This document shows positions 12,555 to 37,360 of a stretch of DNA of 37,888 nt, piece after piece. Every line of letters begins with the position of its first letter. The stretch's first letter is position 1. The stretch lies in sequence record DRR378314_1703, one strand, 5' to 3'. Both the position numbers and the translations under genes were made by a program. A model generated the notes under the pieces. It did not search any database. It saw only the letters and a program-made list of their open reading frames with translations, and was not told the DNA's origin.

Positions 12555-12578
12555 TCAAATTGCGCGGAACATCCTGAC

Positions 12579-14534: not shown

Positions 14535-14537
14535 ACC

Positions 14538-16504: not shown

Positions 16505-16507
16505 GAT

Positions 16508-18845: not shown

Positions 18846-20089
18846 GAATGTCCCCCGCGCGTTTCACGTTCCAACAACGCCGGATCGGACAGCCACCGGT
18901 CAAGCGCATCTGTGGCGATATCCCCACATGCGACCTCTTCCAGCCCGTCAACCAAGCCGTCGATGACCGTCCGCGCCAGCGCTTTGGGTGACACCTTGGG
19001 CGGCAGCAATGGCTGGTGCCAAGCGTCATCAACCGGGCCTGTATAGACATTCATCACCCGCAACCCCGACGCACTGAACTCGCCACGCATGGTCTGGGCA
19101 ACGGATCGCGCCGCCGCTTGGCTCGCCGCAAAACCACCAAATCCCATATCCGGTGCCAGCGCCTGTACTGACAGAATATTAACCCATGCCACCGCAGCGT
19201 TGATTCCGTCTGCGGTACGTGCGCACATCGCAGGGCCGAACCCCTGGGCCAGTCGCATCAGGCCCAGCACATTGGTTTCCAATCCGTCGCGGGCAAAAAC
19301 CGTATCGCCAGCCACCACCCCACCGGGGCGGATGAATTGCGCGGTGTTGATTAAAATATCAACCTTCCCGCCGATTTCTGCCGCCAGTCGCGCAACAGAG
19401 GCCGTGTCGGTCACATCCAGCGGCATCAGCGCCACGTTTTCCATCGCCGCCAATGCCTCCCGGCCTTCCCATCGCCGCCAGCTTTCCGCTTCCCCAAGAA
19501 AGATGGTCGTCGCCCCGGCGCGCTGCAATGCTTCGGCCAAGGGTTGTGCAAGAGGCGAACGCGCATCAGTGATCAGGACGCGCCGGTGTTTCGGGTCGCA
19601 CGACATCGCGCGGAGCATCGGATCATCCTGCATCGTTTCACTTCCTTTCAGCGGCAGCGCCACCATGACGCCCTGTCCGGCCTTATCCAATTTCAATGCC
19701 ATGCGTACGCCATCACCGCGCGCAACCTCGCCATGCAGATGGCAGACAACAACCGGCCCCGCTGCAAGTTGGACCGAGCCCATCCGCCATGGCAAACGTT
19801 CACGGAAATAGGGGTCGGGCGAGACCCGAATGGTGGTTTGCGCCAGCACCTGCGCGGCGGGATCAGTCAAACGCCACTCAAGGGCTACAGACAGACATTT
19901 GCAGCAAGCATCGCGCGGCGGGTATTGAACCGCACCGCAGTCCACACAGTGTTGCAGCGCAAATTGTCCCCGCGCAGCCGCAATGCCCAGACCCAATGCC
20001 GCGCGCGATCTCTTCACCGGCGGCAGCGTCGGTACAACGGTCCTTTTTTGCGGGTCTTTTGGTGCCGGAACCGGCAGCGGTTTGGTCAT
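18842..20089 (-). CDS. DUF35-type Zn-ribbon/OB-fold domain fused to a degenerate SDR domain
   Basis: CVDC...YPPR..CCKC Zn ribbon plus OB fold. C-terminal Rossmann-like region has TDARSPLA in place of TGxxxGxG and FAASQ in place of YxxxK. Start ATG 20089. Confidence 0.85.
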   Translation of the reverse strand: MTKPLPVPAPKDPQKRTVVPTLPPVKRSRAALGLGIAAARGQFALQHCVDCGAVQYPPRDACCKCLSVALEWRLTDPAAQVLAQTTIRVSPDPYFRERLPWRMGSVQLAAGPVVVCHLHGEVARGDGVRMALKLDKAGQGVMVALPLKGSETMQDDPMLRAMSCDPKHRRVLITDARSPLAQPLAEALQRAGATTIFLGEAESWRRWEGREALAAMENVALMPLDVTDTASVARLAAEIGGKVDILINTAQFIRPGGVVAGDTVFARDGLETNVLGLMRLAQGFGPAMCARTADGINAAVAWVNILSVQALAPDMGFGGFAASQAAARSVAQTMRGEFSASGLRVMNVYTGPVDDAWHQPLLPPKVSPKALARTVIDGLVDGLEEVACGDIATDALDRWLSDPALLERETRGGHS

Positions 20090-21255
20090 CTGCCCGATCC
20101 TTCGATAATAGCCGCAGCAGAGCAAACACCGCGATCATAGTTGATCATGCCAAAGCCTGACACCATTGCGCGACGGGCATCTGCCACCTGCGTGCCGCCT
20201 GCCTGCCCGGTGACTTGCCGGATGGCTTCGACCAAGCCGAGATATCCCCCCGCTGCCCCGGCCTGCCCAACAGAGAGCTGCCCCCCGGACGTGTTATGCG
20301 GAAAATCACCAGAGATCGTCAGATCGTGGTCACGCACGAAACCAGCTCCCTCTCCCTTGGCACAAAATCCCAAATCTTCGAATTGCATCATCGAAATAAC
20401 CGGATAGTCGTCATAGGTCTGCAACAGGTCAATTGCTTCGGGGCCATGGCCAGCCATGCTGTACAACTCGTCTATGTCCATCACCCAGCCACCGCGCAGC
20501 TGGATCGGATCGTCGGCAAAGCCATTGTGCCGCTCGATTGTTCCGCTGATACGGGCAAAAGGCAGCGCGCGCTGTTTTGCCTCCTCTTCGCGCATGACCA
20601 GAAACGCTTCCGCGCCAGCACAGGGCATGACACAATCAAACAACGAAATCGGGTCTGCTATCATACGTGCGTCCATATATTGCGACAGCGTCAAAGGTGT
20701 CTTCATCAACGCATCTGGATAGAGCAGCGCATTGGCCCGCTGCGCCACCGCGATCTTGCCGAAATCCTCGCGGGTGGCCCCATATTCAGCCATGTAAGCA
20801 TCCATCAGTAGCGCGAAACTGGCATTCGGGCCGCCGAAACCATAAGGGAACGTGGCATCCATCGAAAACCGCGAGAACCCGGTCAGCAAGGTCCGAAAAC
20901 TGTCAATTCGATTGGCGTCCCCCGCCACACAGGCCACCACATCTACATCCCCGGCCTGCACCGCGCGCGCAGCACGACGCAGCGCAATCACGCCACTGGC
21001 GCCGCCTGTCGGCACGGTATCCAACCATCGCGGGCAAAGCCCGAGGTGCTGTGTCAACCCTACCGGCGTATCAGGAAACAGCGAAAAGCTGGACACGGAA
21101 AACCCATCAAGATCACGCGGTGCAATATCCGCCTGCTCCAGCATGGCGCGCAACGCGCGCGCGATCCACCAATGTGCGGTTTCGTTGCTGTAGCGAATGT
21201 AGGGCACGGAGACCGGCACCGCGAGCACGACCCCATCATAACCCTGCCGCTTCAC
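20086..21255 (-). CDS. SCP-x/Ltp2-type thiolase-fold protein
   Basis: AQRANA..P.A, PISLFDC, YDDY and NTSGGQLS. The nucleophile position reads TGGASG (no Cys). GTG start 21255 with SD GGAG, overlapping the upstream TGA. Confidence 0.87.
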   Translation of the reverse strand: MKRQGYDGVVLAVPVSVPYIRYSNETAHWWIARALRAMLEQADIAPRDLDGFSVSSFSLFPDTPVGLTQHLGLCPRWLDTVPTGGASGVIALRRAARAVQAGDVDVVACVAGDANRIDSFRTLLTGFSRFSMDATFPYGFGGPNASFALLMDAYMAEYGATREDFGKIAVAQRANALLYPDALMKTPLTLSQYMDARMIADPISLFDCVMPCAGAEAFLVMREEEAKQRALPFARISGTIERHNGFADDPIQLRGGWVMDIDELYSMAGHGPEAIDLLQTYDDYPVISMMQFEDLGFCAKGEGAGFVRDHDLTISGDFPHNTSGGQLSVGQAGAAGGYLGLVEAIRQVTGQAGGTQVADARRAMVSGFGMINYDRGVCSAAAIIEGSGR

Positions 21256-22877
21256 GAGGCACTCCGTTTTTTCAGGTGGCGGGTATCGATGGTTGCAGGA
21301 TCTTTGATCAACGCGACCGCCTGCGATTTCAACACTGCACGTTGCAGTTTCTGTGTGGAGGTCAGCGGCAGCGCACTGACAAAATTGATAAATCCGGGAG
21401 CCTTGTAATAGGCAAGTTGGCTCAGGCACCAGGTCGTGATTTCATGGGCCAGCTTTGCCGGATCATCTGGGCTCTGCTTGGCTACGATGCAGGCAAATAC
21501 CTCATCACCGCGCACCGCATCAGGTACCGCGGCAACCGCTGCGCTGGCGATGTCAGGGTGGCGCATCAGGGTCGATTCCACCTCAACTGCGGCAATGTTT
21601 TCGCCGGATCGACGAATAACGTTTTTCTTGCGGTCGACAAAGAACATCGCCCCATCTGCCTCTTGCCGCACGATATCGCCGGTGTGAAACCAGCCATCGG
21701 CCCAGACTTCATCCGTCGCTGCCTTATTCTTGAAATACCCTGCAAAGAAACCTCTGCGCGGATCTTCACCGGCGCGCCGTACCAGAAGTTCCCCCTGCGC
21801 AGCCTCAGCACCGGCATCATCAACCAGACGCACCTCAAGGCCGGCATCAGGCTTGCCAAGGCAGCTTTCTCCGACCCGGCGCGGTTCGCGGTTGGCACAG
21901 ATCACCGCCCCTGCCCCCGTCTCGGTCATTGCCCAGGCCTCGACCAGTCGAAAACCAAAACGCGCCTCGAAATCGGCGTGCAACTTGGGGTCAACACCCG
22001 CGCCAAAGCCAAAGCGCAGCCTGTGATCCCGATCACCCGAATCCGGTTCGACCGCCATCAACATCGACGGCATAACGCCCAGGTAATGCAGGCAAGTCGC
22101 ACCGGAAGCGCGCACCGACGCCCACCAGCTGCGCGGATGAAACCGATCCAGCACCGTAAGGCATCCGCCCACAGCAATCATTGCCATAAAGGAATAGGCC
22201 ATCGCGTTCATGTGGAAGATCGGCAGTGGCGTAATCATGCGCTCGCCATCCGTCTTTAGTGCACAAAGCCCGCCGGTCTGTGCATACCAGCGTCCAGCGT
22301 CGAGAAAATATGTGTTGGTCAGGATACAGCCTTTAGGCTGACCAGTGGTGCCCGATGTATAAAGCAGTGCCGCCTCTGCATTTTCACTGCCCCCCTCGCG
22401 CGCCGCAATTGCATCTTGCGTAACCGGCAAGGGCCACGGCTCATCAGTTGCGATCACCGGCATTTCGCGTCCCGCCTCGGCGGCTGCCGCACGCAGTTCT
22501 GCACATCGTTCAGGCAGCGCTAAGGCCAGCACCGGTTCCGCATGCTCGATCATATAGCTTAGCTCCGCCGCGCGCAGATCCGGGTTCACCGGCACCACCG
22601 ACAGGCCCAACCCATTCAGGGCCAGCCACCAAAGAAAGAACGCGGGCCGGTTTTCCAGCAGCAGCATTACCCGTTGCCCTGAGCGATAATCGGCTTCGCG
22701 CACAGCCACCTGCAGTTCGCTGACTTGATCCATCGCCGCAGCATAGGTCATATCCCCGACAGTAATGTCGTAGATACCAGCGGTTTCCGGCAAAACATTC
22801 AGAAATGCGCGATCAGGATAACATTTTGCGGTAGCCTCAAAAGCGGCAAAGACCGAAGTGGTCTCGGGTGCGATCAT
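21252..22877 (-). CDS. AMP-binding acyl-CoA ligase (CaiC-like)
   Basis: YTSGTTGQPKG, AMTETG, GWFHTGD, VDRKKNVIRRSGENI and LPLTSTQK. Start ATG 22877. Confidence 0.93.
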   Translation of the reverse strand: MIAPETTSVFAAFEATAKCYPDRAFLNVLPETAGIYDITVGDMTYAAAMDQVSELQVAVREADYRSGQRVMLLLENRPAFFLWWLALNGLGLSVVPVNPDLRAAELSYMIEHAEPVLALALPERCAELRAAAAEAGREMPVIATDEPWPLPVTQDAIAAREGGSENAEAALLYTSGTTGQPKGCILTNTYFLDAGRWYAQTGGLCALKTDGERMITPLPIFHMNAMAYSFMAMIAVGGCLTVLDRFHPRSWWASVRASGATCLHYLGVMPSMLMAVEPDSGDRDHRLRFGFGAGVDPKLHADFEARFGFRLVEAWAMTETGAGAVICANREPRRVGESCLGKPDAGLEVRLVDDAGAEAAQGELLVRRAGEDPRRGFFAGYFKNKAATDEVWADGWFHTGDIVRQEADGAMFFVDRKKNVIRRSGENIAAVEVESTLMRHPDIASAAVAAVPDAVRGDEVFACIVAKQSPDDPAKLAHEITTWCLSQLAYYKAPGFINFVSALPLTSTQKLQRAVLKSQAVALIKDPATIDTRHLKKRSAS

Positions 22878-23353
22878 GGCAGCAACTGAATATTGCGAAA
22901 GGCTGCATCGCAATTGACGATATCAACCCGCTTGTTGGCGATGCGCAGCTTGCCCTCAACCAATGCCAGTTCATGCCGCGCGGTGACGGCAAGCAGCTGC
23001 TGTTCGTCCAGACGCGTTTCGACATAATGCATGAACGTCGTGGTCACGAACTGGCCTGCGTCCTCGTCCATCTCATCCACGAAAGGCCGCTGGATTACGT
23101 GGTGACAACGGCTTTTGGGTTTCTGGCTGAAAGTACGCGCGCCCATCAGGCGTTCCACCCGCAGCTTGAGCATGAACATATCTTCATACATCAAAGAGGT
23201 CTCGTTGATCGGATCGGTCTGTTTATAGTCCAGCGGCATCCAATAGTGGCCATCAGGCAACCACAGATTCAGCCACTCGGCAAAACGTCCCTCGTCCAGC
23301 ATGCGTACTTCGTCATAGATGAAATCAATCAGGCGCTCGCGTGTAACGGTCAT
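22874..23353 (-). CDS. Aromatic ring-hydroxylating dioxygenase beta subunit (IadE-like)
   Basis: FIYDEVRMLDEGRFAEWL..W...G.YWMP, LKLRVERL and SQKPKSR. Directly follows the alpha subunit. Confidence 0.93.
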   Translation of the reverse strand: MTVTRERLIDFIYDEVRMLDEGRFAEWLNLWLPDGHYWMPLDYKQTDPINETSLMYEDMFMLKLRVERLMGARTFSQKPKSRCHHVIQRPFVDEMDEDAGQFVTTTFMHYVETRLDEQQLLAVTARHELALVEGKLRIANKRVDIVNCDAAFRNIQLLP

Positions 23354-24693
23354 TCTGCAACCTCCGCATTTTTGTCCATTCCCATGGTCATGAACTTGAC
23401 CCATGCATGGAACTGATTGCGCATCTGACGTTCGGTGGTACCGTTTTCGACTGCTTCGACATCAAAATCTTCGTCATCTTCGATCAGACGTTGGATATTG
23501 ACCCACTCCAACCCGTCAACCAACAGCCCCTCCTGCGCGCGCTCGTACATTTCCAGATCATCATGCCCCACAATAGAGGTCGGCGCATTGATCATCCGAT
23601 TGTACATAGCCGTGCGCGCGGTCAATTCTTCAGGTGCGTCAACCAGCCGGTAAATGTAGCTTTCCACAATTGTCCTATCCGCCGCCAACGGGATAAAGAC
23701 CCGCAGCTGCTGGATTGGACCTTTGATCATGATATTCGGAAAATATACTGTATTGTGGCGATTTTCATCCAGGATCGCCTTGGCCTTATCCGCGCCATAG
23801 CTGGCGCTCAAGGCTTCGAAATATCCCGGAATGGCAGAATAATCCGAATGGATTGAATGGTTCACCCCGGTGTGCCCATGCCCATTTGGCCAGGTGCGAA
23901 TGCCCATCCCCTCAAAGAATTCATAAGGCGACATAAAAGGCGCGATAATCTCCATCGCAGCGGGTTTTGGGGCGTCTTCGGGCAGGTCCAACTCTTCGTA
24001 AAGCTTGACCGCCGTCCCGGCAGAACTTTCATGCGCGACCATCGGGTGACATGTATCAGTCTGGTTTTCGACCAGCATCTTCCAATTGCAATAATGCAGA
24101 TAGCGTAGCGGCGGACCAACGACCTCAAGCCGCCCAGCGGGAGAACGGTCCACCATGTTATCAAGTGATGAAAGGCTATCGCCAAAGAACTCCTCAAAGC
24201 TGATGCCTGTCTCGGCCAGTCGCGCAAAGATGAAGCCCCGGTAATTTTTCACATCACCAACCGCGCGCATGCCCTTGCCGCTTTCCGTCTTTTCCAGCCC
24301 GGTGTCCTGATAACCTTTCTTCAGCGGAATCGCCAAAAGGCAGCCATCGGTCTTGAACGACCATGCGTGATAAGGACAACGGAAAAACTTGCCGGTGTTG
24401 CCCTGCCGGTCAATTACAATCTTGGTGCCCTTATGCGGACAACGGTTCAACAGGACATGGATATCACCCGTGGAATGGCGCACCTGGATCACCGGCTGAT
24501 TGCCAATCTGTGTGCTGAAGTAGTCACCCCTGTTGGGCGTCTGGCTTTCATGGCCGACAAATACCCAGGCATTGGCAAAGAGATGTTTCATCTCCTGCTG
24601 GTAAACTTCCTGATCTGTATAGATGTCGCGATGAACCTGATGTGGTTGAACAAGTGCTGCCAACGCCGCAGGGTTGTCGGTGTAACGTCCCAT
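23350..24693 (-). CDS. Rieske aromatic ring-hydroxylating dioxygenase alpha subunit (IadD-like)
   Basis: Rieske CPH...CPYH and mononuclear Fe site NWK..VEN..DTCHPMVAH...HDD. SD GGGAG before ATG 24693. Confidence 0.95.
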   Translation of the reverse strand: MGRYTDNPAALAALVQPHQVHRDIYTDQEVYQQEMKHLFANAWVFVGHESQTPNRGDYFSTQIGNQPVIQVRHSTGDIHVLLNRCPHKGTKIVIDRQGNTGKFFRCPYHAWSFKTDGCLLAIPLKKGYQDTGLEKTESGKGMRAVGDVKNYRGFIFARLAETGISFEEFFGDSLSSLDNMVDRSPAGRLEVVGPPLRYLHYCNWKMLVENQTDTCHPMVAHESSAGTAVKLYEELDLPEDAPKPAAMEIIAPFMSPYEFFEGMGIRTWPNGHGHTGVNHSIHSDYSAIPGYFEALSASYGADKAKAILDENRHNTVYFPNIMIKGPIQQLRVFIPLAADRTIVESYIYRLVDAPEELTARTAMYNRMINAPTSIVGHDDLEMYERAQEGLLVDGLEWVNIQRLIEDDEDFDVEAVENGTTERQMRNQFHAWVKFMTMGMDKNAEVAE

Positions 24694-24704
24694 AATATTC
24701 TCCC

Positions 24705-25658
24705 TCAAATATCCAGCACAAGGCGGGGCGACTTTGACCGGCTGACGCAAATCTGCATTACCTTTCCCGCAGCACGCTCTGCCTCTGATAAAACCACATC
24801 CCGGTGGTCCGGTGTGCCGCTGATCACATCACATTGGCAAATGCCACAATCGCCGCGCTGGCAATCATACATCACATCGACCCCACCCTCTTCCAATGCC
24901 TCAATGATGGACTGTCCCGGAATGACGGTGAACACCGCCCCTGTTGACGCAAGTTCAACTTCAAAAGCGGTATCACCCACCTCTTCCTGTGGTGCGTCAA
25001 ACAATTCGAAATGAATCCGCGCTGCCGCGATCCCGGCCGCCTCGGCCTTTGCCTTTGTTGCATCAATCAAACCCTTGGGGCCACAGACATACAGATGCGC
25101 GGTTGGCGCCAGATCCGCAATCACCCCATCAAGGTCCAATGCAGAAAGCGGATCGTCGTCACAGTGCAGATGCAGCTTGTCACCAAGTGATCCCCGCAGC
25201 ACATCGCGATAGGCCATCAACGATGCACTGCGGCCGGAATAGTGAAATACAAATTCTTGTTGGTGGTCCATTAATGTCATCGCCATCGAGATCATCGGCG
25301 TGATGCCGATCCCCCCCGCAAGAAGCACAGCCGGCGCATCAAGGTTCAGCGGAAAATCATTCTTGGGCAGCGCGCAGCTAATCGCCGCCCCGGCCTCAAG
25401 CCCGTGCATATATTTGGAGCCACCCTTTCCTTCCGGTTCACGCTGTACCGCGATCCGGTATTCCTGCGGCGTGGGGCTGATCGGTTCAAACGCAATAAGA
25501 GAATAGGCACGGGTTTCGCCGTCAGGCAGATCAAACAGCACGTGTGCACCCGGCGCAAAGGTAGGCAGCGCCGCGCCATCCGTCGACGCCAGACGAAATT
25601 CGCTGATGCGTTCCGTCAACGGAGTTACTTGCGTAATCTTAGCTTCAATTTTTGACAT
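24705..25658 (-). CDS. PDR/VanB-family FMN/[2Fe-2S] oxidoreductase (IadC-like)
   Basis: RAYSL, GGSKY, AGGIGITP, YVCGP and C-terminal ferredoxin CQRGDCGIC...QIC. Confidence 0.94.
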   Translation of the reverse strand: MSKIEAKITQVTPLTERISEFRLASTDGAALPTFAPGAHVLFDLPDGETRAYSLIAFEPISPTPQEYRIAVQREPEGKGGSKYMHGLEAGAAISCALPKNDFPLNLDAPAVLLAGGIGITPMISMAMTLMDHQQEFVFHYSGRSASLMAYRDVLRGSLGDKLHLHCDDDPLSALDLDGVIADLAPTAHLYVCGPKGLIDATKAKAEAAGIAAARIHFELFDAPQEEVGDTAFEVELASTGAVFTVIPGQSIIEALEEGGVDVMYDCQRGDCGICQCDVISGTPDHRDVVLSEAERAAGKVMQICVSRSKSPRLVLDI

Positions 25659-25679
25659 CTGCCGCCCTCCCTGTCAAAC

Positions 25680-25708
25680 AATATGATTTTTCATGTATTT
25701 TTGGTCAA
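25680..25708 (-). promoter_or_regulatory. Sigma70-like promoter of the dioxygenase operon overlapped by a putative MarR operator
   Basis: Minus strand TTGACC-N17-CATATT. The motif AATACATGAAAAATCATAT (25681-25699) covers the spacer and the -10 element. Confidence 0.65.
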
Positions 25709-25793
25709 GGGTTTTCTTGCCATCAGTGACCATCACGGTCATTTAAGAGCCGCCGGACGCGTTTCTATCCGGCCTATCAAAGGGTTGAGCCGC

Positions 25794-26282
25794 GTGTCGC
25801 AACAGATTACGGAACCAGTTACTGAAGAAAACGGGGCGCAAGGCGCGGCATTTGTCCCCGATTACCTGCTCTATCTTCTGGCCGCGGCCAGCGAAGCGGC
25901 CAGTGCGCAGTTTCACGCAAAGGTCCGCAAGATGGGTTTGCGGGTGCCGGAATGGCGCGTATTGGCCTGCCTTGCAGATCAAGATGGCGCGATGATCACC
26001 CACCTCGCACGCATCGCCTTGGCAGAGCAGTCCCGATTGACCCGTATCATCGCCCAAATGGAACAGCGCGGGCTGTTGACCCGCCGCAACGACCCCGCAG
26101 ACGGGCGTCGCGTTCGGGTTTTCTTGACGGATCAGGGGCGTGACTTGGCGGCAACACTGGTGCCCCAGGCCCGCGAACATGAAACCGCCCTGTTAGAGCT
26201 ATTGCAAGGCAAGGAGGGTGCCCAACTTAAACCCGCCCTAAAGTCGTTACTGAAAGTGCTGGAGGCCAGTTCGCCGGAGTAA
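25794..26282 (+). CDS. MarR-family transcriptional regulator (IadR/IacR-like)
   Basis: FVPDYLLYLLA...EWRVLACL...QSRLTRII..ME.RGL..R...DGRRVRVFLT..G. Likely GTG start 25794. Confidence 0.9.
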   Translation: MSQQITEPVTEENGAQGAAFVPDYLLYLLAAASEAASAQFHAKVRKMGLRVPEWRVLACLADQDGAMITHLARIALAEQSRLTRIIAQMEQRGLLTRRNDPADGRRVRVFLTDQGRDLAATLVPQAREHETALLELLQGKEGAQLKPALKSLLKVLEASSPE

Positions 26283-26331
26283 GCAAGGCCGGCCCCTACG
26301 AAAAAAAGGTTCCAATAGCGTTTGAAATGTG

Positions 26332-26350
26332 AATACATGAAAACGCATAT
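26332..26350 (+). promoter_or_regulatory. Second copy of the putative MarR operator, upstream of the TRAP operon
   Basis: AATACATGAAAACGCATAT, 17/19 identical to the copy at 25681-25699 (opposite strand). TTGAAA lies at 26322. Confidence 0.65.
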
Positions 26351-26415
26351 ACTTGGTGAGCGCGCCAAAGGCGCTCCCATCAAGTCATATCAAACGATAT
26401 GGGGAGGAGCCCGAA

Positions 26416-27435
26416 ATGACCAAAATCACCAAGTTTCTGACGACGTCAGCCTTGGCACTCTGTACCGCTACAGGTGCCTTTGCTGCCGAAACCCTGACAA
26501 TCTCGACCTGGCTGCCACCAACACATCCGGTCAACACCGGCATGTTTGCCAAACTGACCGAAATGATGTCCGAAGCCACCGGCGGCGAGATCACAACCGA
26601 ACTTAAGAACGGCCTGGCCCCGCCCCCGGCACAGATGGATCTACTGCTGGATGGTGCTGCGGATATCGCGATCCTGTTTCATGGATACACCCCCGGCCGT
26701 TTCGTGGGCACCAAACTGGTTGAGGTACCCGGCTATGAAGGCAGCGCCGAGGCCGCTTCAGTCGCACATTGGCGTGTACATGAAGCGATGCTGGCGGAGC
26801 TGAACGAACATCGTGGCGTGAAAGTCATCGCGCTGACCACACATGGTCCGGGTCAGATCCACTCTAACAAGGAAGTAAATACCCTTGATGATCTGCAAGG
26901 GTTGAAAACCCGCCTTGGGGGCGGTGTTTCGGCTGATGTCGGAGCGGAACTCGGGCTTGTCGGCATTCAGGTACCTGCCCCCAAAGTCTATGAAACACTG
27001 GATTCCGGTGCCGCCGACGCAGTGGCGATGAATATGGGCGAACGGATCAGCTTCAAATTGGATGAAGTTGCCAAAAACGTCTATGAAATGCCCGGCGGTT
27101 TCTACCGCGGTTCTTTTGCGGTCATCATGAGTCAGGAAAAATTCGACAGCCTGCCGGAAGAGATGCAAACCGCATTGGACGAACAGGTTTTTGGTGAACC
27201 TTCCAGCCGCATGATGGGTGCCGTCTGGGATCAAAGCGATGTTGATGCACGCGCCAAGACCGAAGCGGCGGGTGACAATACAATCGTCACCGCCTCCGCT
27301 GAGGACCAATCCCGCTTTGCCGAAATGGCCGCGCGGGTGCGTGATAAAATCATTGCAGAAATCACTGATGCAGGGATCGACGGTGAGGCCGCATATGAGA
27401 TGATGCGCGCGGAAATGGCTGCGGCAAACAAGTAA
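26416..27435 (+). CDS. TRAP transporter substrate-binding protein (DctP family)
   Basis: Signal peptide, WLPPTH, GYTPGRF, LQGLKTR (conserved Arg) and YETLDSG. SD GGAGGAG. Confidence 0.92.
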   Translation: MTKITKFLTTSALALCTATGAFAAETLTISTWLPPTHPVNTGMFAKLTEMMSEATGGEITTELKNGLAPPPAQMDLLLDGAADIAILFHGYTPGRFVGTKLVEVPGYEGSAEAASVAHWRVHEAMLAELNEHRGVKVIALTTHGPGQIHSNKEVNTLDDLQGLKTRLGGGVSADVGAELGLVGIQVPAPKVYETLDSGAADAVAMNMGERISFKLDEVAKNVYEMPGGFYRGSFAVIMSQEKFDSLPEEMQTALDEQVFGEPSSRMMGAVWDQSDVDARAKTEAAGDNTIVTASAEDQSRFAEMAARVRDKIIAEITDAGIDGEAAYEMMRAEMAAANK

Positions 27436-27495
27436 CCGACGTTGGCAGCCGGGCACAGGCGTTGCTTGCGCCCGGCGCGACCGCAAGGGAATTCC

Positions 27496-27999
27496 ATGCG
27501 CTCTTTGATCCGCCTTTTCGAAATCGTTTCTGTTATTCCGATGGTGATGGCCTCTTTGGCGCTGTTTGCGCTGATGGGGCTGACCTTCGCTGATGTACTG
27601 ATGCGCTCATTGTTCAACGCGCCGATACAGGCAGCGACCGAGCTGATCCGCATCGGCATTGCACTGATTGTCTTTTCCGCCCTCCCGATCCTGTCGGCCC
27701 GTGAAGGACATATCGCAGTCGATCTGCTGGACGGCCCCTTTGCCCGCTTCGGGCTGGAGCGCTGGCGCAATGCGCTGGTCACCTTAAGCTGCGGTGCGAT
27801 GCTTTGGTTGCCGGCGCAGCGCGTGGTTGATCTGGCCTATCGCGCGCGCAGCTATGGGGATGTCACGGAATACCTTGAAATTCCAACGTTCTATATCGGC
27901 ATGTTTATCGCCGCCATGACCTTTCTGACTTCAATTGTACTGATTGTACGCGGCCTTTTTTATCTCTTCGCCCCCCAGCTTCTGGACACATCCAAATGA
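27496..27999 (+). CDS. TRAP transporter small permease (DctQ family)
   Basis: ADVLMRSLFNAPI..ATEL and HIAVDLL, with four hydrophobic segments. Confidence 0.9.
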   Translation: MRSLIRLFEIVSVIPMVMASLALFALMGLTFADVLMRSLFNAPIQAATELIRIGIALIVFSALPILSAREGHIAVDLLDGPFARFGLERWRNALVTLSCGAMLWLPAQRVVDLAYRARSYGDVTEYLEIPTFYIGMFIAAMTFLTSIVLIVRGLFYLFAPQLLDTSK

Positions 28000-29309
28000 T
28001 TGCATCCGCTATCGGTTTCGCCGCCGTGTTCCTTCTTGTTCTGCTGCGTATCCCGATTGCTTTTGCGATGGGTTTTGTCGGCATGGTCGGGCTTGTCTAT
28101 GAAACCAGCTACCGCGCCTCCATTTCAATGGTGTCACGGCTGATCATCGACACCAGTCAGGATTACGGCCTGTCCGTGATCCCACTGTTCATCCTCATGG
28201 GGCTCTTCGTGAACAAGGGCGGCATCAGCCGCGAGCTTTATCAAGTGTCCAATGCTTTTCTGGGGCATTTTCGCGGAGGGTTGGCGATGGCGACAATTGT
28301 CGCCTGCGGGGGCTTTGCCGCGATCTGTGGTTCCTCCCTCGCAACGGCCGCCACGATGTCAAAGGTCGCTATGCCGGAAATGCGAAAGTTCGGCTATGCT
28401 GACAGCCTGTCGACCGCCTCCATCGCGGCGGGCGGAACACTGGGCATTTTAATCCCACCTTCTGTCATTCTGGTAATCTATGGCCTTCTGACCGAGACTT
28501 CTATCGGGGCTTTGTTCATCGCTGGCATCATTCCGGGGTTCCTTGGCATTCTTTTCTATCTGGGCGCCGTCCGGTATTCCGTAGCAATGAACCCGGAATC
28601 CGGCCCCGCTGGGCCGCGCGCCACCTGGCGCGAACGGCTGCATGCGCTGAATCACGTCTGGTCTGTACTGGCGCTCTTTGCACTGGTGATTGGCGGCCTT
28701 TACGGCATATTGGATTTCTGGCCAATCCATCTGGCGTTTTCCCCAACTGAAGCTGCCGGCATGGGGGCAGCAGGTGCTTTCCTGATTGCCTTGGCGCGCG
28801 GGGGCCTGAACTGGCGTGCTCTGCGTGAGGTGCTGGAAGAAACAACCCTTACCACGGCATCGCTTTTTGCCGTTCTTATCGGGGCATGGATTTTCTCCAA
28901 CTTCGTCAACCTCGCTGGCCTGCCCGAAGGCTTGCTTGCCATGGTGACCGCTTTGGAACTTGGGCCTTGGGTGGTCATGGGGCTGATCTTGCTGATTTAC
29001 ATTGCATTGGGATGTATATTTGAAAGTATGTCGATGCTGTTGCTGACGGTGCCGATCTTTTTCCCACTGGTCACCAGCCTTGGATTTGATCCGGTATGGT
29101 TCGGCATCATCGTTGTTGTCGTGACGGAAATCAGCCTGATCACACCGCCCGTGGGGCTGAACGTCTTTGTTCTGAAGGGTGTTGTCGGCGATGTCAGCAC
29201 TGGCACAATCTTTCGCGGTGTAACCCCTTTCTGGATTGTCGACATCCTGCGCTTGCTGCTGCTGCTCGCCTTTCCAGCTCTGGTGCTTTTCTTACCATCG
29301 CAAATGTAA
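27996..29309 (+). CDS. TRAP transporter large permease (DctM family)
   Basis: IPLFILMG, CGSSLATAA, GGTLGILIPPS, SPTEAA and LITPPVGLNVFV. Confidence 0.94.
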   Translation: MIASAIGFAAVFLLVLLRIPIAFAMGFVGMVGLVYETSYRASISMVSRLIIDTSQDYGLSVIPLFILMGLFVNKGGISRELYQVSNAFLGHFRGGLAMATIVACGGFAAICGSSLATAATMSKVAMPEMRKFGYADSLSTASIAAGGTLGILIPPSVILVIYGLLTETSIGALFIAGIIPGFLGILFYLGAVRYSVAMNPESGPAGPRATWRERLHALNHVWSVLALFALVIGGLYGILDFWPIHLAFSPTEAAGMGAAGAFLIALARGGLNWRALREVLEETTLTTASLFAVLIGAWIFSNFVNLAGLPEGLLAMVTALELGPWVVMGLILLIYIALGCIFESMSMLLLTVPIFFPLVTSLGFDPVWFGIIVVVVTEISLITPPVGLNVFVLKGVVGDVSTGTIFRGVTPFWIVDILRLLLLLAFPALVLFLPSQM

Positions 29310-29322
29310 TCGCAAAACAAAT

Positions 29323-29352
29323 GGGGGTGCCCGGTCTATACCGGACACCCCC
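29323..29352. terminator. Hairpin between convergent dctM and amine oxidase genes (probable bidirectional terminator)
   Basis: GGGGGTGCCCGG-TCTATA-CCGGACACCCCC, with an A-rich left flank. Confidence 0.7.
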
Positions 29353-29372
29353 TATTGCAACAGGCCTGCCGC

Positions 29373-31355
29373 CTACTGCGGGTCGCGTATGGTGATCGCT
29401 GGATTCATTGGGAAGAAATTATGCGGCATGATATGCACTGTCTTCCACTCCGTTGACATCACCGGCCAGTCTTCAGTGCGCGGCACATGGTGGAACCCTG
29501 CGGTGAACCAAGTGACAATATCCTGATCCTGAAGTGGCGCGTCATCCTTAACCCATTGCGCCAAAGTATCAGACCCATCACTTTGCAGGGCGAACTTACC
29601 CCCTGCATAGCGTTCGGCAGGGTCATGCACCGTGTTCCAGACCGAATTCTCGATATAGGCGTTTCGGATCATCGGCGGGTCGTTTTCAAAATCAAACGGC
29701 CCATAGGCGACGCTGCCGTGATGGATCATATAACCAGGCTTATGGCCCAATGGGCCCTTGCGATCCGGGTTCTGCAACATGAAGTAACGCGGCTTGAAGG
29801 ATGAAACCTGATACTTCGCCTCCATCTCGGATTTAGGCATGCTGTGCTTAACCTTCCACAACGACCGCCGGGGGCTGTCATCGTCGACTTCCGCAGCTAC
29901 GATGTCCATCGTCATAAAACGGTTGCTTGGTTGATCGATGTCAAAATCAATTCGGAAATTGAAATAGTGATCGTGATTGGCCGCCACCAGATTGGGAGCA
30001 ATCAAGGTGCCATATTCGGTTTCCGCCACCGCAGTTGGATCATCCATCGATCTGGCATTGGCCCCTTTGACCCCGTCCAATCCGGTTGCGCCGATCTTGA
30101 TCTCGATCTGCCCGTTTTGTTTGAAACGGTAGTCGATCAGGTAATCATAGTTACCGACTTCAGAAGCGGTGCGTACCACCAGTTCCGTCTCTGGACGTCC
30201 TTCGGCAGGCACATATTGATCCGGGCCCTGCGCGAAGACTTCGAAATGCCGCCATGCAGGGTCACCGATATTGCGCTCGAAAATACAGATCGCATCTGGA
30301 ATTTCGAGTGGGTTGCCACCATCATCCGCGATCATCGCAGGCAGGAAGGTTGCGTGACTTGGGCAATCTATACCCGCTACCAAAGGCGTCAGGAACAGAC
30401 CAAAGCCGTATTCGCCACTGTCCATATAGGTGCGCCAATACAAGCCCTCGCTGGGATCCATATAGGGCACGAAGACTTCGGACAAATGCGCCTGATAAAT
30501 CAAAGAGCGCCATTCATCGCCGTCTTTGACATCAATGTTCGACAGGACCGGGCCCGGGCGTTTGTCTACCCGCAGCCGCATCCGCCACATGTCCCATTCC
30601 AGCGCACCGTTGTCGTAGGTAAAGTTTGCGCCGCCCTCTTGCGAAAGGGTGGCCGGATTCATCTCGGGCCGCTGGCTTGTCCGCGCCTCGATTTCCTCTC
30701 CGGTATATCCCCAGCCATCTTCGGGTACCGCCACAAGACCCTCGTCAATCACCCGCAAGGCGGTCCCACTTTGCAGATCGACAACGGCATAAATGCCTTC
30801 AATCGGTTTGGCATAAAAGTTGGAACCGTCAGGGTTCACATAACACGGCACCTTCATCAGGCGGGTGCCATCGTCCTCATCGTTGAAGAAATTCCCGGCG
30901 GTCAATGGCAGGCAGAACACCTGCTCCGGCGTCAAACCACGTTTCGCCAAACCCGCAATCATATCTGGATGGGTCAGAGCGGCCCCCATCGCATTGGCAA
31001 ATTCAGCAAACAAGATCATCGGCTGCCCTTCGACCGGGCTGTTACCTTCGACCTGTCCGCTGGTCAGGTTCACCACCGCCTCGATAAAGCCGGTACCATC
31101 AGCGTTGGACATATGTACCATCGCCCGTCGGTCCAGCTGATCACCCTCCTGCCAGGCGAGCACCTCGGCCTTTGGTGGTTCGATCAGTTCAATCAACGGA
31201 TAAAGCGTGTCATCCCCCGCCAAATCGCTGGCGCGCAGGATTTCGTTGATCTTTTGATATTCCGGGCCAGACAGCCCATCCAGCGGATGCGCCATCGCAC
31301 CCCCTGCCAGCATCACAAGGGCCGCGCTGCCCCCAAGTATGGTTTTGCGTAACAT
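29373..31355 (-). CDS. Copper-containing (TPQ) primary amine oxidase, Sec-exported (TynA/MaoA-like)
   Basis: Signal peptide ending AMA|HPLD, base Asp in YMDSGEYG, TPQ motif GNYDY, and Cu ligands NHDH and GFHHVPR.EDWPVM. SD GGAGGAG before ATG 31355. Confidence 0.95.
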   Translation of the reverse strand: MLRKTILGGSAALVMLAGGAMAHPLDGLSGPEYQKINEILRASDLAGDDTLYPLIELIEPPKAEVLAWQEGDQLDRRAMVHMSNADGTGFIEAVVNLTSGQVEGNSPVEGQPMILFAEFANAMGAALTHPDMIAGLAKRGLTPEQVFCLPLTAGNFFNDEDDGTRLMKVPCYVNPDGSNFYAKPIEGIYAVVDLQSGTALRVIDEGLVAVPEDGWGYTGEEIEARTSQRPEMNPATLSQEGGANFTYDNGALEWDMWRMRLRVDKRPGPVLSNIDVKDGDEWRSLIYQAHLSEVFVPYMDPSEGLYWRTYMDSGEYGFGLFLTPLVAGIDCPSHATFLPAMIADDGGNPLEIPDAICIFERNIGDPAWRHFEVFAQGPDQYVPAEGRPETELVVRTASEVGNYDYLIDYRFKQNGQIEIKIGATGLDGVKGANARSMDDPTAVAETEYGTLIAPNLVAANHDHYFNFRIDFDIDQPSNRFMTMDIVAAEVDDDSPRRSLWKVKHSMPKSEMEAKYQVSSFKPRYFMLQNPDRKGPLGHKPGYMIHHGSVAYGPFDFENDPPMIRNAYIENSVWNTVHDPAERYAGGKFALQSDGSDTLAQWVKDDAPLQDQDIVTWFTAGFHHVPRTEDWPVMSTEWKTVHIMPHNFFPMNPAITIRDPQ

Positions 31356-31385
31356 ATTATCTCCTCCATAAATTTGCATTTCCAA

Positions 31386-31415
31386 GTTCCCGCTTCGCCT
31401 CCCCGGAGCGGGAAC
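31386..31415 (-). other. Intergenic stem-loop between the ALDH and amine oxidase genes
   Basis: Minus strand GTTCCCGCTCCG-GGGAGG-CGAAGCGGGAAC (11/12 pairs), no strong U-tract. Confidence 0.55.
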
Positions 31416-31427
31416 CAGCATACTTGA

Positions 31428-32846
31428 TCAGGCAAAAATCACTTGAATTTGGGTGTATTCCTTGAGGCCCTCTTCACCAAACTCAACGCCAAGTCCCGAT
31501 TTTTTTGCCCCGCCAAATGGCGCATTCGGCTGGATCATCCCATGACTGTTCACCCAGACCGACCCACATTCCATCCGCAGCGCCACCGATTTGGCCGCCG
31601 CTATGTCGCCTGACCAGACAGACCCGCCCAATCCCACATCCAGTGCATTTGCCTGTAACAGGGCATCTTCCAGTTCCGTGTATCGGATGATGGGCAGAGC
31701 TGGTCCAAATTGCTCTTCGTAGACCAGCGGATCATCCGCCCCCATCCCGGCGATGATCGTGGGCGGATAGAACAAGCCCTGCCCCGGTTCCCCACCCAGC
31801 AAGACCTGCCCGCGTTCCTTGGCCTGCGCCACCAAACGCGACAGCTTATCAAACTGCATCTGGTTCTGAACCGGGCCAAGCATGCTGTCTTCCAGACTGC
31901 CTTCGCCGACCTTGATGTTGCGCGCAAAGGCCACCAGAGCGTCACAAACAGCATCATGGATATCGTCATGCACATAAAGACGTTTCATTGCCGCACAGGT
32001 CTGACCATTATTGATGAAAGCACCCCAGAACAGGCCCTCTGCAATCTGCTCGGGGTTCGCGTCGGGCAACACAATGCCGGCGTCGTTTCCGCCCATCTCA
32101 AGGGTCAGCCGTTTCATCGTTTCCGCCCCGGACTGCATGACCTTCTGGCCCGTACCGCAAGACCCGGTGAAAACGATCTTTGCGATATCCACATGTGCCG
32201 ACATCGCGGCCCCCATGTTGAACGCCCCATCCTGACAACTGACGGAATTCACCACCCCAGCAGGCAGAACTTCGTTCATCAACTCGATCATCCGCAGTGA
32301 TGCCAGCGGTGTCAGAGGGGAAGGTTTGCTCACAACAGTATTGCCCGTGCGCAGGGCAGGCAGGATATGCCAGACTGCAATCAGCACCGGAAAGTTCCAC
32401 GGGGTGATCGAGCCCACTACGCCCAATGGCTTGCGGTGCATCTCGACCCGGCCTTGATCCGTGTCTTGTAAAACCTGAAGCGGCAAAGACAGGCCCGCAG
32501 TATAGCGCGCCCAAGCGACAGCGCCGCCCATTTCCCACCGCGAACCGATACCGTCCAACGGCTTGCCCTGCTCTGCGGTGATCAACTGTGCCAGTTCTTC
32601 TGCATGTTGCTCTAGCTTGTCTGCCACCGCGTTGCAGGCCGCAGCCAGCTCCGCGTCAGACTTTGCCGACCACATCGGAAAAGCCGCCTTGGCCGCTGCA
32701 ACGGCCCGGTCAAGTTCCTCCTGCCCTGCATCGGGGGCTGTGCCTGCCACACCACCCGTGCCGGGGTTCGTAACGTCAAAACGCCGTGGCGTCTCCGGTC
32801 TCTCGCCATTCGCGATTAACCCGATTGTTTCGGTAGTATCTTTCAT
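31428..32846 (-). CDS. NAD(P)-dependent aldehyde dehydrogenase (probable arylacetaldehyde dehydrogenase)
   Basis: ITPWNFP, KPSPLTP, FTGS, LEMGGND, GQTC and EEQFGP. Directly upstream of the amine oxidase. Confidence 0.94.
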   Translation of the reverse strand: MKDTTETIGLIANGERPETPRRFDVTNPGTGGVAGTAPDAGQEELDRAVAAAKAAFPMWSAKSDAELAAACNAVADKLEQHAEELAQLITAEQGKPLDGIGSRWEMGGAVAWARYTAGLSLPLQVLQDTDQGRVEMHRKPLGVVGSITPWNFPVLIAVWHILPALRTGNTVVSKPSPLTPLASLRMIELMNEVLPAGVVNSVSCQDGAFNMGAAMSAHVDIAKIVFTGSCGTGQKVMQSGAETMKRLTLEMGGNDAGIVLPDANPEQIAEGLFWGAFINNGQTCAAMKRLYVHDDIHDAVCDALVAFARNIKVGEGSLEDSMLGPVQNQMQFDKLSRLVAQAKERGQVLLGGEPGQGLFYPPTIIAGMGADDPLVYEEQFGPALPIIRYTELEDALLQANALDVGLGGSVWSGDIAAAKSVALRMECGSVWVNSHGMIQPNAPFGGAKKSGLGVEFGEEGLKEYTQIQVIFA

Positions 32847-32946
32847 GATGTCCTCCCAATCTCCACAATCGACGGATGCCGATTGCGCTCCCTGGAAGTC
32901 AGGCTAGGCGCTCATCCTGTGGACATCTTGGGCGAACGCGACAGCG

Positions 32947-33891
32947 CTATTGGACGATCGCGCCAGCCGCACGGCTGCGGTTTTGGGCCTCTCCGGGGGT
33001 CACCCCATATTGCTGCCGAAAGGTGCGATAGAAATACGACAGATCGTTAAATCCGCAGGCATAGGCGCAATCCACCACAGAGACTTCTGATGCCCCGGCA
33101 CGCGACAGATCCGCATAGGCTTGCGCCAACCGCGTCTGTACCAGCCTCTGCCCCGGCGTATCACCCAGCGGCTCGAAATACCTTTGCAGACTGCGCAGGG
33201 AAACGCCCAACCGCAACGCCAATGTCCCCGGTCCAAACTCTGGATCGCGATAGTTTTGTGCGATCAACCGCAGCGCCCGCGCGATGATTTGCCCGCGCGG
33301 GTCTGGCTCCTGACTACGGCGTTCCTGAAAATATGCCCCTATCAGACCATAGAAGGCTTCGCTCAATTGCGTGCCTGTTTCCGGCGCACTGTGCAGCATT
33401 TTCACCAACACCGCCCGCATCGCCAGCCACAAGGGGTCGGTCCGGTCAATAGCAACGCCGCCATTACAGATCGCACCAAAGCGCCCCAACATCTCATCAC
33501 GCGGAAGATGTACAGAAATCTGATGCGCCAGCTGCCCATCATACACGAATTTCGACGGCTGCGTCGCATCAACAATGAACATATCCCCCGGCGAGAGCAG
33601 CGTAGAGGTGCCATTTTGATGCACAACACAGCGGCCAAAATCCTGAACAAGCATGAAGAAATATTCACTCGGATCGCGCCGTATACAGGCCCGTGTGCGC
33701 GCCGCCTCTTCAACGTCAAGCGACACCAGCGCGGTATCAAAGCCCCCCATCGTCTGCTTGCGCGCTAACCCATGCGACTGCGCGTGGTGACTTGCAGGCT
33801 CAATCTCGAAGGCCCCACAAATTTCACCTATATCGTCGCGCAATGTCTCAATCGCGATGGCTTCCGTTGTCATCTGGCTAAGCGCTTGCAT
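32947..33891 (-). CDS. AraC-family activator with FeaR-like N-terminal domain
   Basis: HQNG....LSPGDMFIVDATQP N-domain and C-terminal LA.RLGVSLRSLQRYF...AYACGFNDLSYFYRTFRQQYG.TP. Start ATG 33891 after AGGAGG (ORF track gives 33957). Confidence 0.9.
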   Translation of the reverse strand: MQALSQMTTEAIAIETLRDDIGEICGAFEIEPASHHAQSHGLARKQTMGGFDTALVSLDVEEAARTRACIRRDPSEYFFMLVQDFGRCVVHQNGTSTLLSPGDMFIVDATQPSKFVYDGQLAHQISVHLPRDEMLGRFGAICNGGVAIDRTDPLWLAMRAVLVKMLHSAPETGTQLSEAFYGLIGAYFQERRSQEPDPRGQIIARALRLIAQNYRDPEFGPGTLALRLGVSLRSLQRYFEPLGDTPGQRLVQTRLAQAYADLSRAGASEVSVVDCAYACGFNDLSYFYRTFRQQYGVTPGEAQNRSRAAGAIVQ

Positions 33892-34091
33892 TCTCGCACC
33901 CCTCCTCTCGCCCGCATTCTGCGCACCCTCGGGAAAGGCTAGCGTATGAATTTGCATGCATCAAGCCCACCGCAGTGTTCCCCATGGCTGACGGTATTTC
34001 CGTGGCTTTGCAGAAGTTTCCTACCCGGTTCGACTGGGGCAAAGCTGGACGAACGCAACGGCAACCGCGCCAGCGCCCTTCACCACGCAGC

Positions 34092-35249: not shown

Positions 35250-35390
35250 GGAAAGCTCCTATAACTTTTTCAGCTGTTCAGGATCCTCAGCGACCCCGGC
35301 GGGTGTCGCGATAGTGAACCTGCTGAAAGCTATGGGAGTCAAGCGAACAGTCTGTGCAGATTTCGTAAGGGAGAATGGATTTAGGGCCAC

Positions 35391-36014: not shown

Positions 36015-36094
36015 TAAGTCTTGAATGCTACGGGGATGTTAAACAAGCGGTTGGGTGCGTGCAACGTCACGCCCTGCCGGCTAGGGAGGATACT

Positions 36095-37294: not shown

Positions 37295-37301
37295 TCAACC
37301 G

Positions 37302-37331
37302 ATCCGGCCCTGCCCGATGGTAGGGCCGGAT
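37302..37331 (+). terminator. Stem-loop after the SBP gene (mRNA stabiliser or partial terminator)
   Basis: ATCCGGCCCTGCC-CGAT-GGTAGGGCCGGAT, a 13-bp stem with one G-U pair. Confidence 0.6.
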
Positions 37332-37360
37332 ACAATCAGGCAAAGCTCAAGAAACTCCCC

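What the first reader, a model, noticed from the sequence alone, without database searches (positions are those of the whole stretch)
29373..33891. Amine oxidase-ALDH-AraC module abutting the iad-like locus: a possible tryptamine -> IAA -> isatin make-and-break island
Seen: a FeaR-like AraC, an ALDH and an exported TPQ copper amine oxidase converge on the TRAP operon, separated only by a 63-bp gap with a hairpin. Established: TynA/FeaB/FeaR-type modules convert arylethylamines to arylacetates, and amine oxidase plus ALDH is the tryptamine route to IAA. Inference: tryptamine is oxidised in the periplasm (releasing NH4+ and H2O2) to indole-3-acetaldehyde, then to IAA, which the neighbouring operon degrades. 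With separate regulators the cell could switch between secreting and destroying auxin. I know of no described locus coupling the two. Caveats: phenylethylamine or tyramine is the default substrate for such modules, and the MarR motif is not seen upstream of these genes.
Basis: partly seen in the sequence, partly recalled or inferred. Interest (0 to 1): 0.72.

Follow-up and report, generated by a model that had tools for sequence, protein, structure and literature searches.

The report
Tryptamine feeder for auxin breakdown
A marine bacterium carries a three-gene amine-oxidising unit next to a full set of genes like those that destroy the plant and algal hormone auxin, and the unit likely turns tryptamine into auxin so that the cell can eat it, rather than to release it.

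Summary
An AraC regulator, an aldehyde dehydrogenase and a signal-peptide-bearing copper amine oxidase converge on a TRAP operon across 63 bp with a terminator hairpin. The neighbour is a real iad-type cluster (iadC-J; its MarR best matches an IAA-binding protein). The cassette itself is a common tynA/feaB/feaR-like unit, but its oxidases split by context. In the window's clade, 18 of 21 genomes hold iadD, 6 of 21 have the cassette beside iad (four layouts) and 0 of 21 beside paa. In the sister clade the figures are 6, 0 and 30 of 56. Family background for iadD is 33 of 401. Best reading (0.6): a catabolic feeder, tryptamine to IAA to anthranilate, probably induced by IAA, with broad amine specificity kept. 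The secrete-or-destroy switch is not supported. Against: the substrate is untested, nearly all carriers tested also have paa, the AraC pocket residues are the same in both clades, and counts are not corrected for kinship. A new variant of a known layout; ten library searches found no description.

The parts
29373..31355 (-). Copper/TPQ primary amine oxidase, 660 aa, with a Sec-like leader and no N1 domain; 34% identical to E. coli TynA
   Evidence: Pfam PF01179 E 9e-119; best PDB hit E. coli amine oxidase E 5e-109; motifs
31428..32846 (-). Aldehyde dehydrogenase, 472 aa; 37% identical to E. coli FeaB; catalytic motifs PWNFP, LEMGG and GQTC present
   Evidence: below every NCBIfam subfamily cut-off shown (best 25 of 40)
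32947..33891 (-). FeaR-like AraC activator, 314 aa; 26% identical to E. coli FeaR
   Evidence: PF14525 and PF12833; NCBIfam FeaR model 149 bits against a cut-off of 199
32928..32965 (-). Two direct 16-bp boxes (period 22) over the end of araC, upstream of a -10-like hexamer at 32901-32906: predicted activator site for the ALDH-oxidase transcript
   Evidence: Found in 61 of 63 araC-ALDH spacers against 2 of 1260 shuffles; the pattern was drawn from these same spacers; only strong hit in the window, 41 bits against -4.8 for the next
33944..33959 (.). IadR-type palindrome (ATG-N6-CAT) between the -35-like (33959-33964) and -10-like (33936-33941) hexamers of the araC promoter: candidate operator
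   Evidence: Third-best site in the window with a matrix built from other genomes' iad promoters; unchanged in 4 of 4 runs laid
29323..29352 (-). Intrinsic-terminator-like hairpin in the 63-bp gap between dctM and the oxidase
17341..25658 (-). iadC (reductase), iadD and iadE (Rieske oxygenase), iadF (CoA ligase), iadG (thiolase), iadH, iadI (isatin-hydrolase-like cyclase), iadJ (SDR), in the Variovorax order; no iadA or iadB
   Evidence: IadD E 3e-170 to PDB 7yls and 4e-171 to 9o71, with 8 of 9 published pocket residues identical; cyclase E 1e-145 to isatin hydrolase A; gene order
25683..26282 (+). IadR-like MarR (longest ORF given; the true start is probably further downstream)
   Evidence: Best PDB hit 3CDH, E 2e-47, an IAA binder with KD 0.237 uM; Y15, S28, H32, W45 and R46 of Variovorax IadR kept, A18 and V65 changed
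25681..25696 (.). IadR-type palindrome at the iadC promoter
26335..26350 (.). IadR-type palindrome at the dctP promoter
26416..29309 (+). TRAP transporter dctPQM, inferred to import IAA or a related acid in place of IadK
   Evidence: found with iad in 14 of the 16 iadD-centred stretches listed (L111 and L114-L129 except L124 and L125, plus L113, which starts inside iadC and so cannot show it)

Best explanation
The three genes form an amine-oxidising cassette that likely works as a feeder pathway, turning tryptamine from the surroundings into indole-3-acetic acid (IAA) for the neighbouring iad genes to break down. Shown: gene identities, catalytic residues, layout, the split of the oxidase family into an iad-linked and a paa-linked clade, and the two kinds of DNA motif. 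Inferred steps: (1) the oxidase is exported and deaminates an arylethylamine in the periplasm, giving aldehyde, ammonium and H2O2; (2) the aldehyde activates the AraC at the double box, raising ALDH and oxidase expression; (3) the ALDH makes the acid; (4) with tryptamine the acid is IAA, which binds IadR and releases iadC-J, the TRAP operon and probably araC itself, a feed-forward loop; (5) IadC-J take IAA to anthranilate. The enzymes probably still accept phenylethylamine, which goes to the unlinked paa pathway.
For: Oxidase tree: window clade of 21 rows, SH-aLRT 98, with iadD in 18 of 21 genomes (the window counted), iad adjacent in 6 of 21 and paa adjacent in 0 of 21. Sister clade of 56 rows: iadD in 6, iad adjacent in 0, paa adjacent in 30. 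Backgrounds: iadD in 33 of 401 genomes of the family sample. In Sulfitobacter, 11 of 12 carriers of the close oxidase have iadD against 23 of 101 non-carriers. Four layouts of adjacency in three genera. The closest relative has no iadD or IadR found and has the cassette directly beside kynureninase and tryptophan 2,3-dioxygenase. The candidate operator scores 18.0 bits; none as good in 1.55 million positions of 77 other loci, 0 of 5000 shuffles; its spacing matches the DNA bound by Variovorax IadR. In L005 araC follows dctM on the same strand with no terminator-like site between. HpaE, a sink for tyramine and dopamine products, is in only 2 of 12 Sulfitobacter carriers against 56 of 101 others and in 1 of 9 further clade genomes. 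TynA oxidises tryptamine and FeaR senses its aldehyde.
Against: No substrate, induction or expression data. PaaA is in 27 of 28 genomes tested, so phenylethylamine always has a route. The AraC positions matching FeaR A81, M83, L108 and Q116 are the same in both clades, and F115 (FeaR L108, Klebsiella I109) is invariant in 65 of 65; I109F made Klebsiella FeaR specific for phenylacetaldehyde, though identity is only 26%. Oxidase core residues are shared by both clades. Six Roseibium-type genomes have iadD yet keep the oxidase beside paa genes. In 12 of the 18 iadD-bearing clade genomes the units are apart. The left half of the palindrome is shared by 13 clade promoters, so the shuffle test is too lenient; most of these score only -2.6 to 10.7; L018, without iadD, has a 13.2-bit hit, probably at its start codon; the Tropicimonas cassettes have no site. 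Fisher tests ignore kinship: about seven Sulfitobacter rows are near-copies.
Confidence: 0.6

Rival explanations
1. An ordinary phenylethylamine cassette feeding the paa pathway. It sits by iad because mobile aromatic-catabolism genes collect in the same islands and in related, alga-associated lineages.
For: The sister clade sits by paa in 30 of 56, as tynA-feaB-feaR does in E. coli. PaaA in 27 of 28 genomes. AraC pocket and activator boxes are shared by both clades. Many window-clade cassettes have unrelated neighbours. Six genomes with iadD keep the oxidase by paa.
Against: 0 of 21 window-clade cassettes lie by paa while 6 lie by iad in four layouts; iadD in 18 of 21 against 8% background; carriers are poor in HpaE, so they are not simply rich in aromatic pathways; IadR-type site in the araC promoter.
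Confidence: 0.28
2. One reading: the cell uses the cassette to make and secrete IAA as a signal to algae and, under separate control, destroys it.
For: Separate transcripts with a terminator between; its own activator boxes; a group II pyridoxal decarboxylase (PF00282, substrate not determined) in 4 of 5 relatives tested, unlinked; a Variovorax strain both makes and consumes IAA (abstract start).
Against: The IadR relative binds IAA at sub-micromolar levels, so IAA would be expected to switch on degradation; the candidate operator puts araC under the same control; no decarboxylase or exporter in the locus; a periplasmic oxidase suits uptake of outside amine.
Confidence: 0.07
3. A tyramine or dopamine cassette feeding the homoprotocatechuate pathway.
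For: TynA and FeaR accept these amines; database label 'tyramine oxidase' on relatives.
Against: HpaE found in 2 of 12 Sulfitobacter carriers and 1 of 9 other clade genomes (in one search only 12 candidates per genome were scored).
Confidence: 0.05

Closest known systems
E. coli tynA-feaB-feaR beside the paa cluster
   Same: Periplasmic TPQ amine oxidase, ALDH and AraC activator next to the cluster that degrades the acid product; TynA accepts phenylethylamine, tyramine and tryptamine.
   Different: Only 34%, 37% and 26% identical; gene order araC-ALDH-oxidase on one strand; no N1 domain; Glu in place of Thr before the TPQ motif; the neighbour is iad, not paa; E. coli's FeaR box consensus (TGNCA-N8-AAA, recalled, from no call) differs from the TGNCG-N6-TCCAA boxes here.
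iad locus of Variovorax paradoxus CL14, and the iad-type system of Ruegeria pomeroyi (IadR 3CDH)
   Same: iadC-J in the same order; IadD pocket 8 of 9 identical; IadR-like MarR; operator spacing ATG-N6-(C/G)AT.
   Different: No iadA/iadB (indolepyruvate oxidoreductase) in the locus; TRAP instead of IadK-N ABC transport; the published Variovorax table lists no amine oxidase or aldehyde dehydrogenase.
Tryptamine pathway of IAA biosynthesis (decarboxylase, amine oxidase, aldehyde dehydrogenase)
   Same: Same two last reactions; marine genome surveys count amine oxidase genes as capacity to make IAA; Fusarium copper amine oxidases make auxin from tryptamine (titles and abstract starts).
   Different: Here the genes lie beside, and perhaps under the repressor of, an IAA-degrading cluster, and no decarboxylase is linked.

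Membership tests
Copper/TPQ amine oxidase | Asn-Tyr(TPQ)-Asp-Tyr motif, catalytic Asp, three copper His | tested here: met
   N402-Y403-D404-Y405, D312, H461, H463, H623; the TPQ Tyr, the base and the three His are invariant in 77 of 77 rows of both clades
Copper/TPQ amine oxidase | Ser/Thr three places before the Asn of the TPQ motif (consensus recalled) | tested here: not met
   Glu399 where E. coli TynA has Thr, in 77 of 77 rows; a subfamily trait of unknown effect
TynA (E. coli equivalog) | NCBIfam PRK14696 score over cut-off | tested here: not met
   427 bits against 1278
TynA (E. coli equivalog) | Export to the periplasm | tested here: inconclusive
   Sec-like leader by inspection and a crude rule only; no signal-peptide predictor was on hand
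FeaR | NCBIfam FeaR model over cut-off | tested here: not met
   149 bits against 199; still the best named model
FeaR | Direct-repeat boxes upstream of the ALDH/oxidase genes | tested here: met
   61 of 63 spacers; binding not shown
FeaR | Activation by aromatic aldehydes | not testable with these tools
   Needs a reporter or binding assay
FeaB / phenylacetaldehyde dehydrogenase | Subfamily model over cut-off | tested here: not met
   StyD model 361 against 850; 37% to FeaB
iad locus | iadC, D, E, F, G, H, I, J in one cluster | tested here: met
   compared; for F, G, H and J the match rests on domain content, length and order
iad locus | IadR MarR with IAA-contacting residues | tested here: met
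   5 of 7 identical to Variovorax IadR; best hit is the IAA-binding 3CDH
iad locus | iadA/iadB marker genes (Conway et al. 2022) | tested here: not met
   Not in the window; the rest of the genome is not held; they are outside the iadC-K2 region that suffices for degradation
iad locus | IadK-type ABC binding protein | tested here: not met
   TRAP transporter in its place; the window's next binding protein hits only 3n0x and 3nnd at E 1e-25 or better
Tryptamine pathway of IAA formation | Oxidase and ALDH turn tryptamine into IAA | not testable with these tools
   Needs enzyme assays

The most novel reading that the evidence does not exclude
A tryptamine-catabolism regulon in marine Alphaproteobacteria: one branch of the phenylethylamine-type cassette has been rewired under the auxin sensor IadR, so that IAA induces its own supply line and its own destruction. 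Roseobacters counted from their genomes as 'tryptamine-pathway auxin producers' would then be tryptamine consumers and auxin sinks in the phycosphere.
Probability: 0.38. Interest if true: 0.72.

Novelty: new variant of a known kind. Interest (0 to 1): 0.58.

Why it matters
IAA is a key signal between Sulfitobacter-like bacteria and algae, and genome surveys read amine oxidase plus aldehyde dehydrogenase as a sign of auxin production. If this clade feeds iad, the sign of that inference flips for these strains. It would give a defined bacterial gene set for growth on tryptamine, which my searches did not find described, and it would add a target to the IadR regulon. It is directly testable in type strains such as S. 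dubius DSM 16472, which holds both units apart, and in Tropicimonas strains, which hold them together.

Tried and rejected
No whole genome is held for the window, so its own paa, hpa, iadAB and decarboxylase genes could not be checked; relatives stand in. Sequencing runs: no RNA holder listed. Two look-ups in earlier findings returned nothing. A first activator-box pattern had the wrong spacing and found 0 of 63; it was corrected. A first operator seed was too narrow. Scanning genes flanking iad in other genomes for another amine-oxidising system found none among 90 of 223 candidate ORFs scanned at E 1e-15; an unrelated ALDH follows iadJ in four Sulfitobacter loci. Neighbours of the cassette: 56 of 233 ORFs and 26 of 110 cluster representatives were scanned. 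The Hoeflea ABC binding protein between iadJ and araC did not hit IadK2 in the PDB at E 1e-25. No clade-specific change was found at the FeaR-equivalent pocket positions. The AraC and ALDH trees need 2 changes for the clade label, so the three genes do not give exactly one shared clade. GC and codon-position GC do not set the cassette apart from its neighbours. No structure was predicted: the models cannot be docked here and the fold is not in doubt. The plasmid collection held 10 relatives at E 1e-150, all under 80% identical; the one opened, a Phaeobacter plasmid, has the cassette without iad or paa within 15 kb. One genome (G848) was not scored.
Full report
Observation. The window holds urease and urea transport genes (5.7-17.2 kb), an eight-gene catabolic run on the minus strand (17341-25658), a MarR, a TRAP transporter (26416-29309) and then, facing it, a copper amine oxidase, an ALDH and an AraC. 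Ribosome-binding sites place the starts at 31355, 32846 and 33891. The gap between dctM and the oxidase is 63 bp and holds a 13-pair hairpin with a U-rich tail on the oxidase strand. The oxidase keeps the TPQ motif, catalytic base, gate and copper ligands and has a Sec-like leader by inspection. A contig of another study's run carries all of 16000-35900 in one piece with 228 differences, so the layout is not an assembly artefact. Seventeen runs from seven studies other than the possible source hold half or more of the cassette's words; where a habitat is named it is seawater, marine, aquatic, aquaculture or rhizosphere. The closest named relatives are Sulfitobacter (oxidase 96%), so the organism is probably one (inference).

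The neighbour is an iad-type cluster. IadD matches PDB 7yls and 9o71 at E about 1e-170. Read against the residues listed by Ma et al. (PMC10374108, passages), 8 of 9 pocket residues are identical, with Leu211 changed to Gln; the numbering of 9o71 fits that paper, although the entry codes are not in its text. The cyclase matches isatin hydrolase A at E 1e-145. The MarR's best hit is 3CDH, which Conway et al. measured binding IAA with KD 0.237 uM (PMC9613470, abstract, passages and part 1 of supplement 7; supplement files 6 and 13 were not searched). Order and domain content follow iadC-J, which with iadK2 restore the pathway to anthranilate (bioRxiv 2025.10.25.684584, abstract and section 5). 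iadA and iadB are missing from the window, and TRAP stands where Variovorax has IadK-N.

How common is the adjacency? Of 233 relatives found, 80 were kept with up to 10 kb of flank. The araC-ALDH-oxidase cassette is widespread (AraC cluster in 71, ALDH cluster in 63 of 80). iad genes lie within the flank in 4 of 80: Sulfitobacter PS-8MA, a Hoeflea MAG and two Tropicimonas. A fifth, G464, came from the genus search. With the window there are four layouts: facing dctM; following dctM on the same strand; beyond iadJ with an ABC transporter between; facing iadJ. PaaN, PaaG or PaaK lie in the flank in 30 of 80.

The tree sorts these contexts (89 rows, quick IQ-TREE, SH-aLRT only). A clade of 21 (support 98) holds the window, Sulfitobacter, Hoeflea, Sedimentitalea, Tropicimonas, Thalassococcus and Jannaschia rows: iadD in 18 genomes, iad adjacent in 6, paa adjacent in 0. 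A group of 56 (support 94; Rhizobium, Shinella, Ensifer, Roseibium and others) has iadD in 6, iad adjacent in 0, paa adjacent in 30. The 12 other rows were left out of this contrast; two Paracoccus among them have iadD. Some flanks are short. Backgrounds: iadD in 33 of 401 genomes of the family sample, where 4 of 5 carriers of a 58% or closer oxidase have it (one is the centre genome); 34 of 113 Sulfitobacter, where 11 of 12 carriers have it against 23 of 101; 28 of 300 Rhizobiaceae, where 4 of 14 carriers have it and none of the 8 at about 70% identity. The dependence runs one way: most iad genomes lack the oxidase, as expected of an optional feeder. Fisher p-values are small but ignore kinship; counted by genus-level group, 5 of 7 in the clade have iadD. 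The closest relative, S. sp. F26204, has no iadD or IadR found, and its cassette abuts kynureninase, tryptophan 2,3-dioxygenase and a hydrolase: one case, but again tryptophan catabolism. PaaA is in 27 of 28 genomes tested. HpaE is in 2 of 12 Sulfitobacter carriers against 56 of 101 others and in 1 of 9 further clade genomes, which weakens tyramine and dopamine and shows that carriers are not rich in every aromatic pathway.

Regulation. Two direct 16-bp boxes sit before the ALDH in 61 of 63 cassettes of both clades (2 of 1260 shuffles; pattern drawn from the same data), which fits an AraC-activated promoter. A palindrome ATG-N6-CAT overlaps the iadC and dctP promoters across genomes. A matrix from 15-16 such sites of other genomes finds three clear sites in the window: 25681, 26335 and 33944; the next scores 8.9 against 16.5. 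The third lies in the 17-bp spacer of the predicted araC promoter. Nothing as good occurs in 1.55 million positions of 77 loci, or in 5000 shuffles. A plain pattern gives 4 matches against 1.07 expected, three of them in these promoters. The DNA bound by Variovorax IadR has the same spacing, with GAT for CAT, and scores 4.2. Cautions: the left half is shared by 13 clade promoters, so few changes are needed to complete the palindrome; the others score -2.6 to 10.7. Eleven of the 13 keep ATG-N6-(C/G/A)AT; the two that break it are F26204, which lacks IadR, and L015, which has iad. L018 has a 13.2-bit hit without iad. The best of 57 promoters outside the clade is 6.8. Tropicimonas has no site. 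In PS-8MA and G464 this promoter is absent and araC follows dctM, with no terminator-like site in PS-8MA. The site is unchanged in 4 of 4 runs, which is weak evidence over 16 bases.

Protein signs of a substrate shift are thin. Position 305 of the oxidase is Leu or Met in 21 of 21 clade rows and Trp in 56 of 56 sister rows and in E. coli TynA; position 120, beside the Phe matching TynA Phe192, is Ala, Val or Ile against Met in 53 of 56. That Phe192 lines the substrate channel is recalled, and the role of either change was not tested. The AraC positions matching the FeaR pocket do not differ between clades, and the invariant F115 matches a Klebsiella FeaR change that gave phenylacetaldehyde specificity (PMC11542736, passages). 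That paper and PMC4640556 (passages) also show that TynA and FeaR handle tryptamine and its aldehyde along with phenylethylamine and tyramine.

Mechanism and rivals. The most likely reading (0.6) is a broad arylethylamine cassette whose window-clade branch serves tryptamine breakdown: periplasmic deamination, aldehyde-activated AraC, ALDH to IAA, release of IadR, degradation to anthranilate, with ammonium as a nitrogen gain. A plain phenylethylamine cassette that gathers near iad gets 0.28. The secrete-or-destroy switch gets 0.07, because IAA would induce its own destruction and the candidate operator joins the two units. Tyramine or dopamine gets 0.05.

Novelty. An amine cassette beside the cluster that degrades its acid is the E. 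coli tynA-feaB-feaR/paa layout. The iad version is a new variant. Ten library searches, read as listings and abstract starts apart from the papers named, showed no locus joining an amine oxidase to iad; none of the five papers listed contains 'amine oxidase', and the word 'tryptamine' is absent from the main text of PMC9613470 and PMC11630574. PMC12114110 and PMC11487934 (passages) treat the tryptamine route in marine bacteria as biosynthesis only. The library lacks most subscription journals, the original Achromobacter iad paper was not seen, and bioRxiv supplements are closed, so absence is not proven.

Noticed in passing
L005:12143-14482, L111/L112 (G464) and L126:1299-3584: A fused cytochrome P450 (with a ferredoxin domain in L005) lies right after the amine oxidase in two Sulfitobacter iad loci and beside iadR in Paracoccus aurantiacus; it may be another feeder for substituted indoles.
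   Followed up: no
L005:8204-9927, L007:8204-9925, L144 (G527): A GMC oxidoreductase is inserted between ALDH and oxidase in three window-clade cassettes; it might return the alcohol side-product (tryptophol or phenylethanol) to the aldehyde.
   Followed up: partly
L001:12444-16233: In S. sp. F26204 the cassette abuts kynureninase, tryptophan 2,3-dioxygenase and a hydrolase, with 3-oxoadipate-type CoA transferase and thiolase genes and another Rieske cluster upstream.
   Followed up: partly
window 29373-31355, residue 399: This oxidase subfamily has Glu where E. coli TynA has Thr just before the TPQ motif, in 77 of 77 rows, and a conserved pair of Cys (148, 171) that could form a disulfide.
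   Followed up: no
window 17341-29309; L114-L129: Marine iad clusters come in two forms, with marR between iadC and TRAP or after TRAP; IadA/B-like genes were seen in only one stretch scanned (L123).
   Followed up: partly
window 34092-37888: Fe-containing alcohol dehydrogenase, PAS-LuxR regulator and a branched-chain-type ABC transporter lie upstream of araC; none of the 80 cassette loci carries the Fe-ADH or PAS-LuxR gene.
   Followed up: partly
L002:8494-9923; G497:C1:2344267-2344956: The ALDH is split into two frames in the S. profundi record, and G497 holds only the last 230 residues of the oxidase with no ALDH or AraC nearby: decay or sequencing error.
   Followed up: no
window 3699-5605 and 5714-17203: An arsR-acr3-arsC operon and a full urease plus urtABCDE cluster precede the iad genes.
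   Followed up: no
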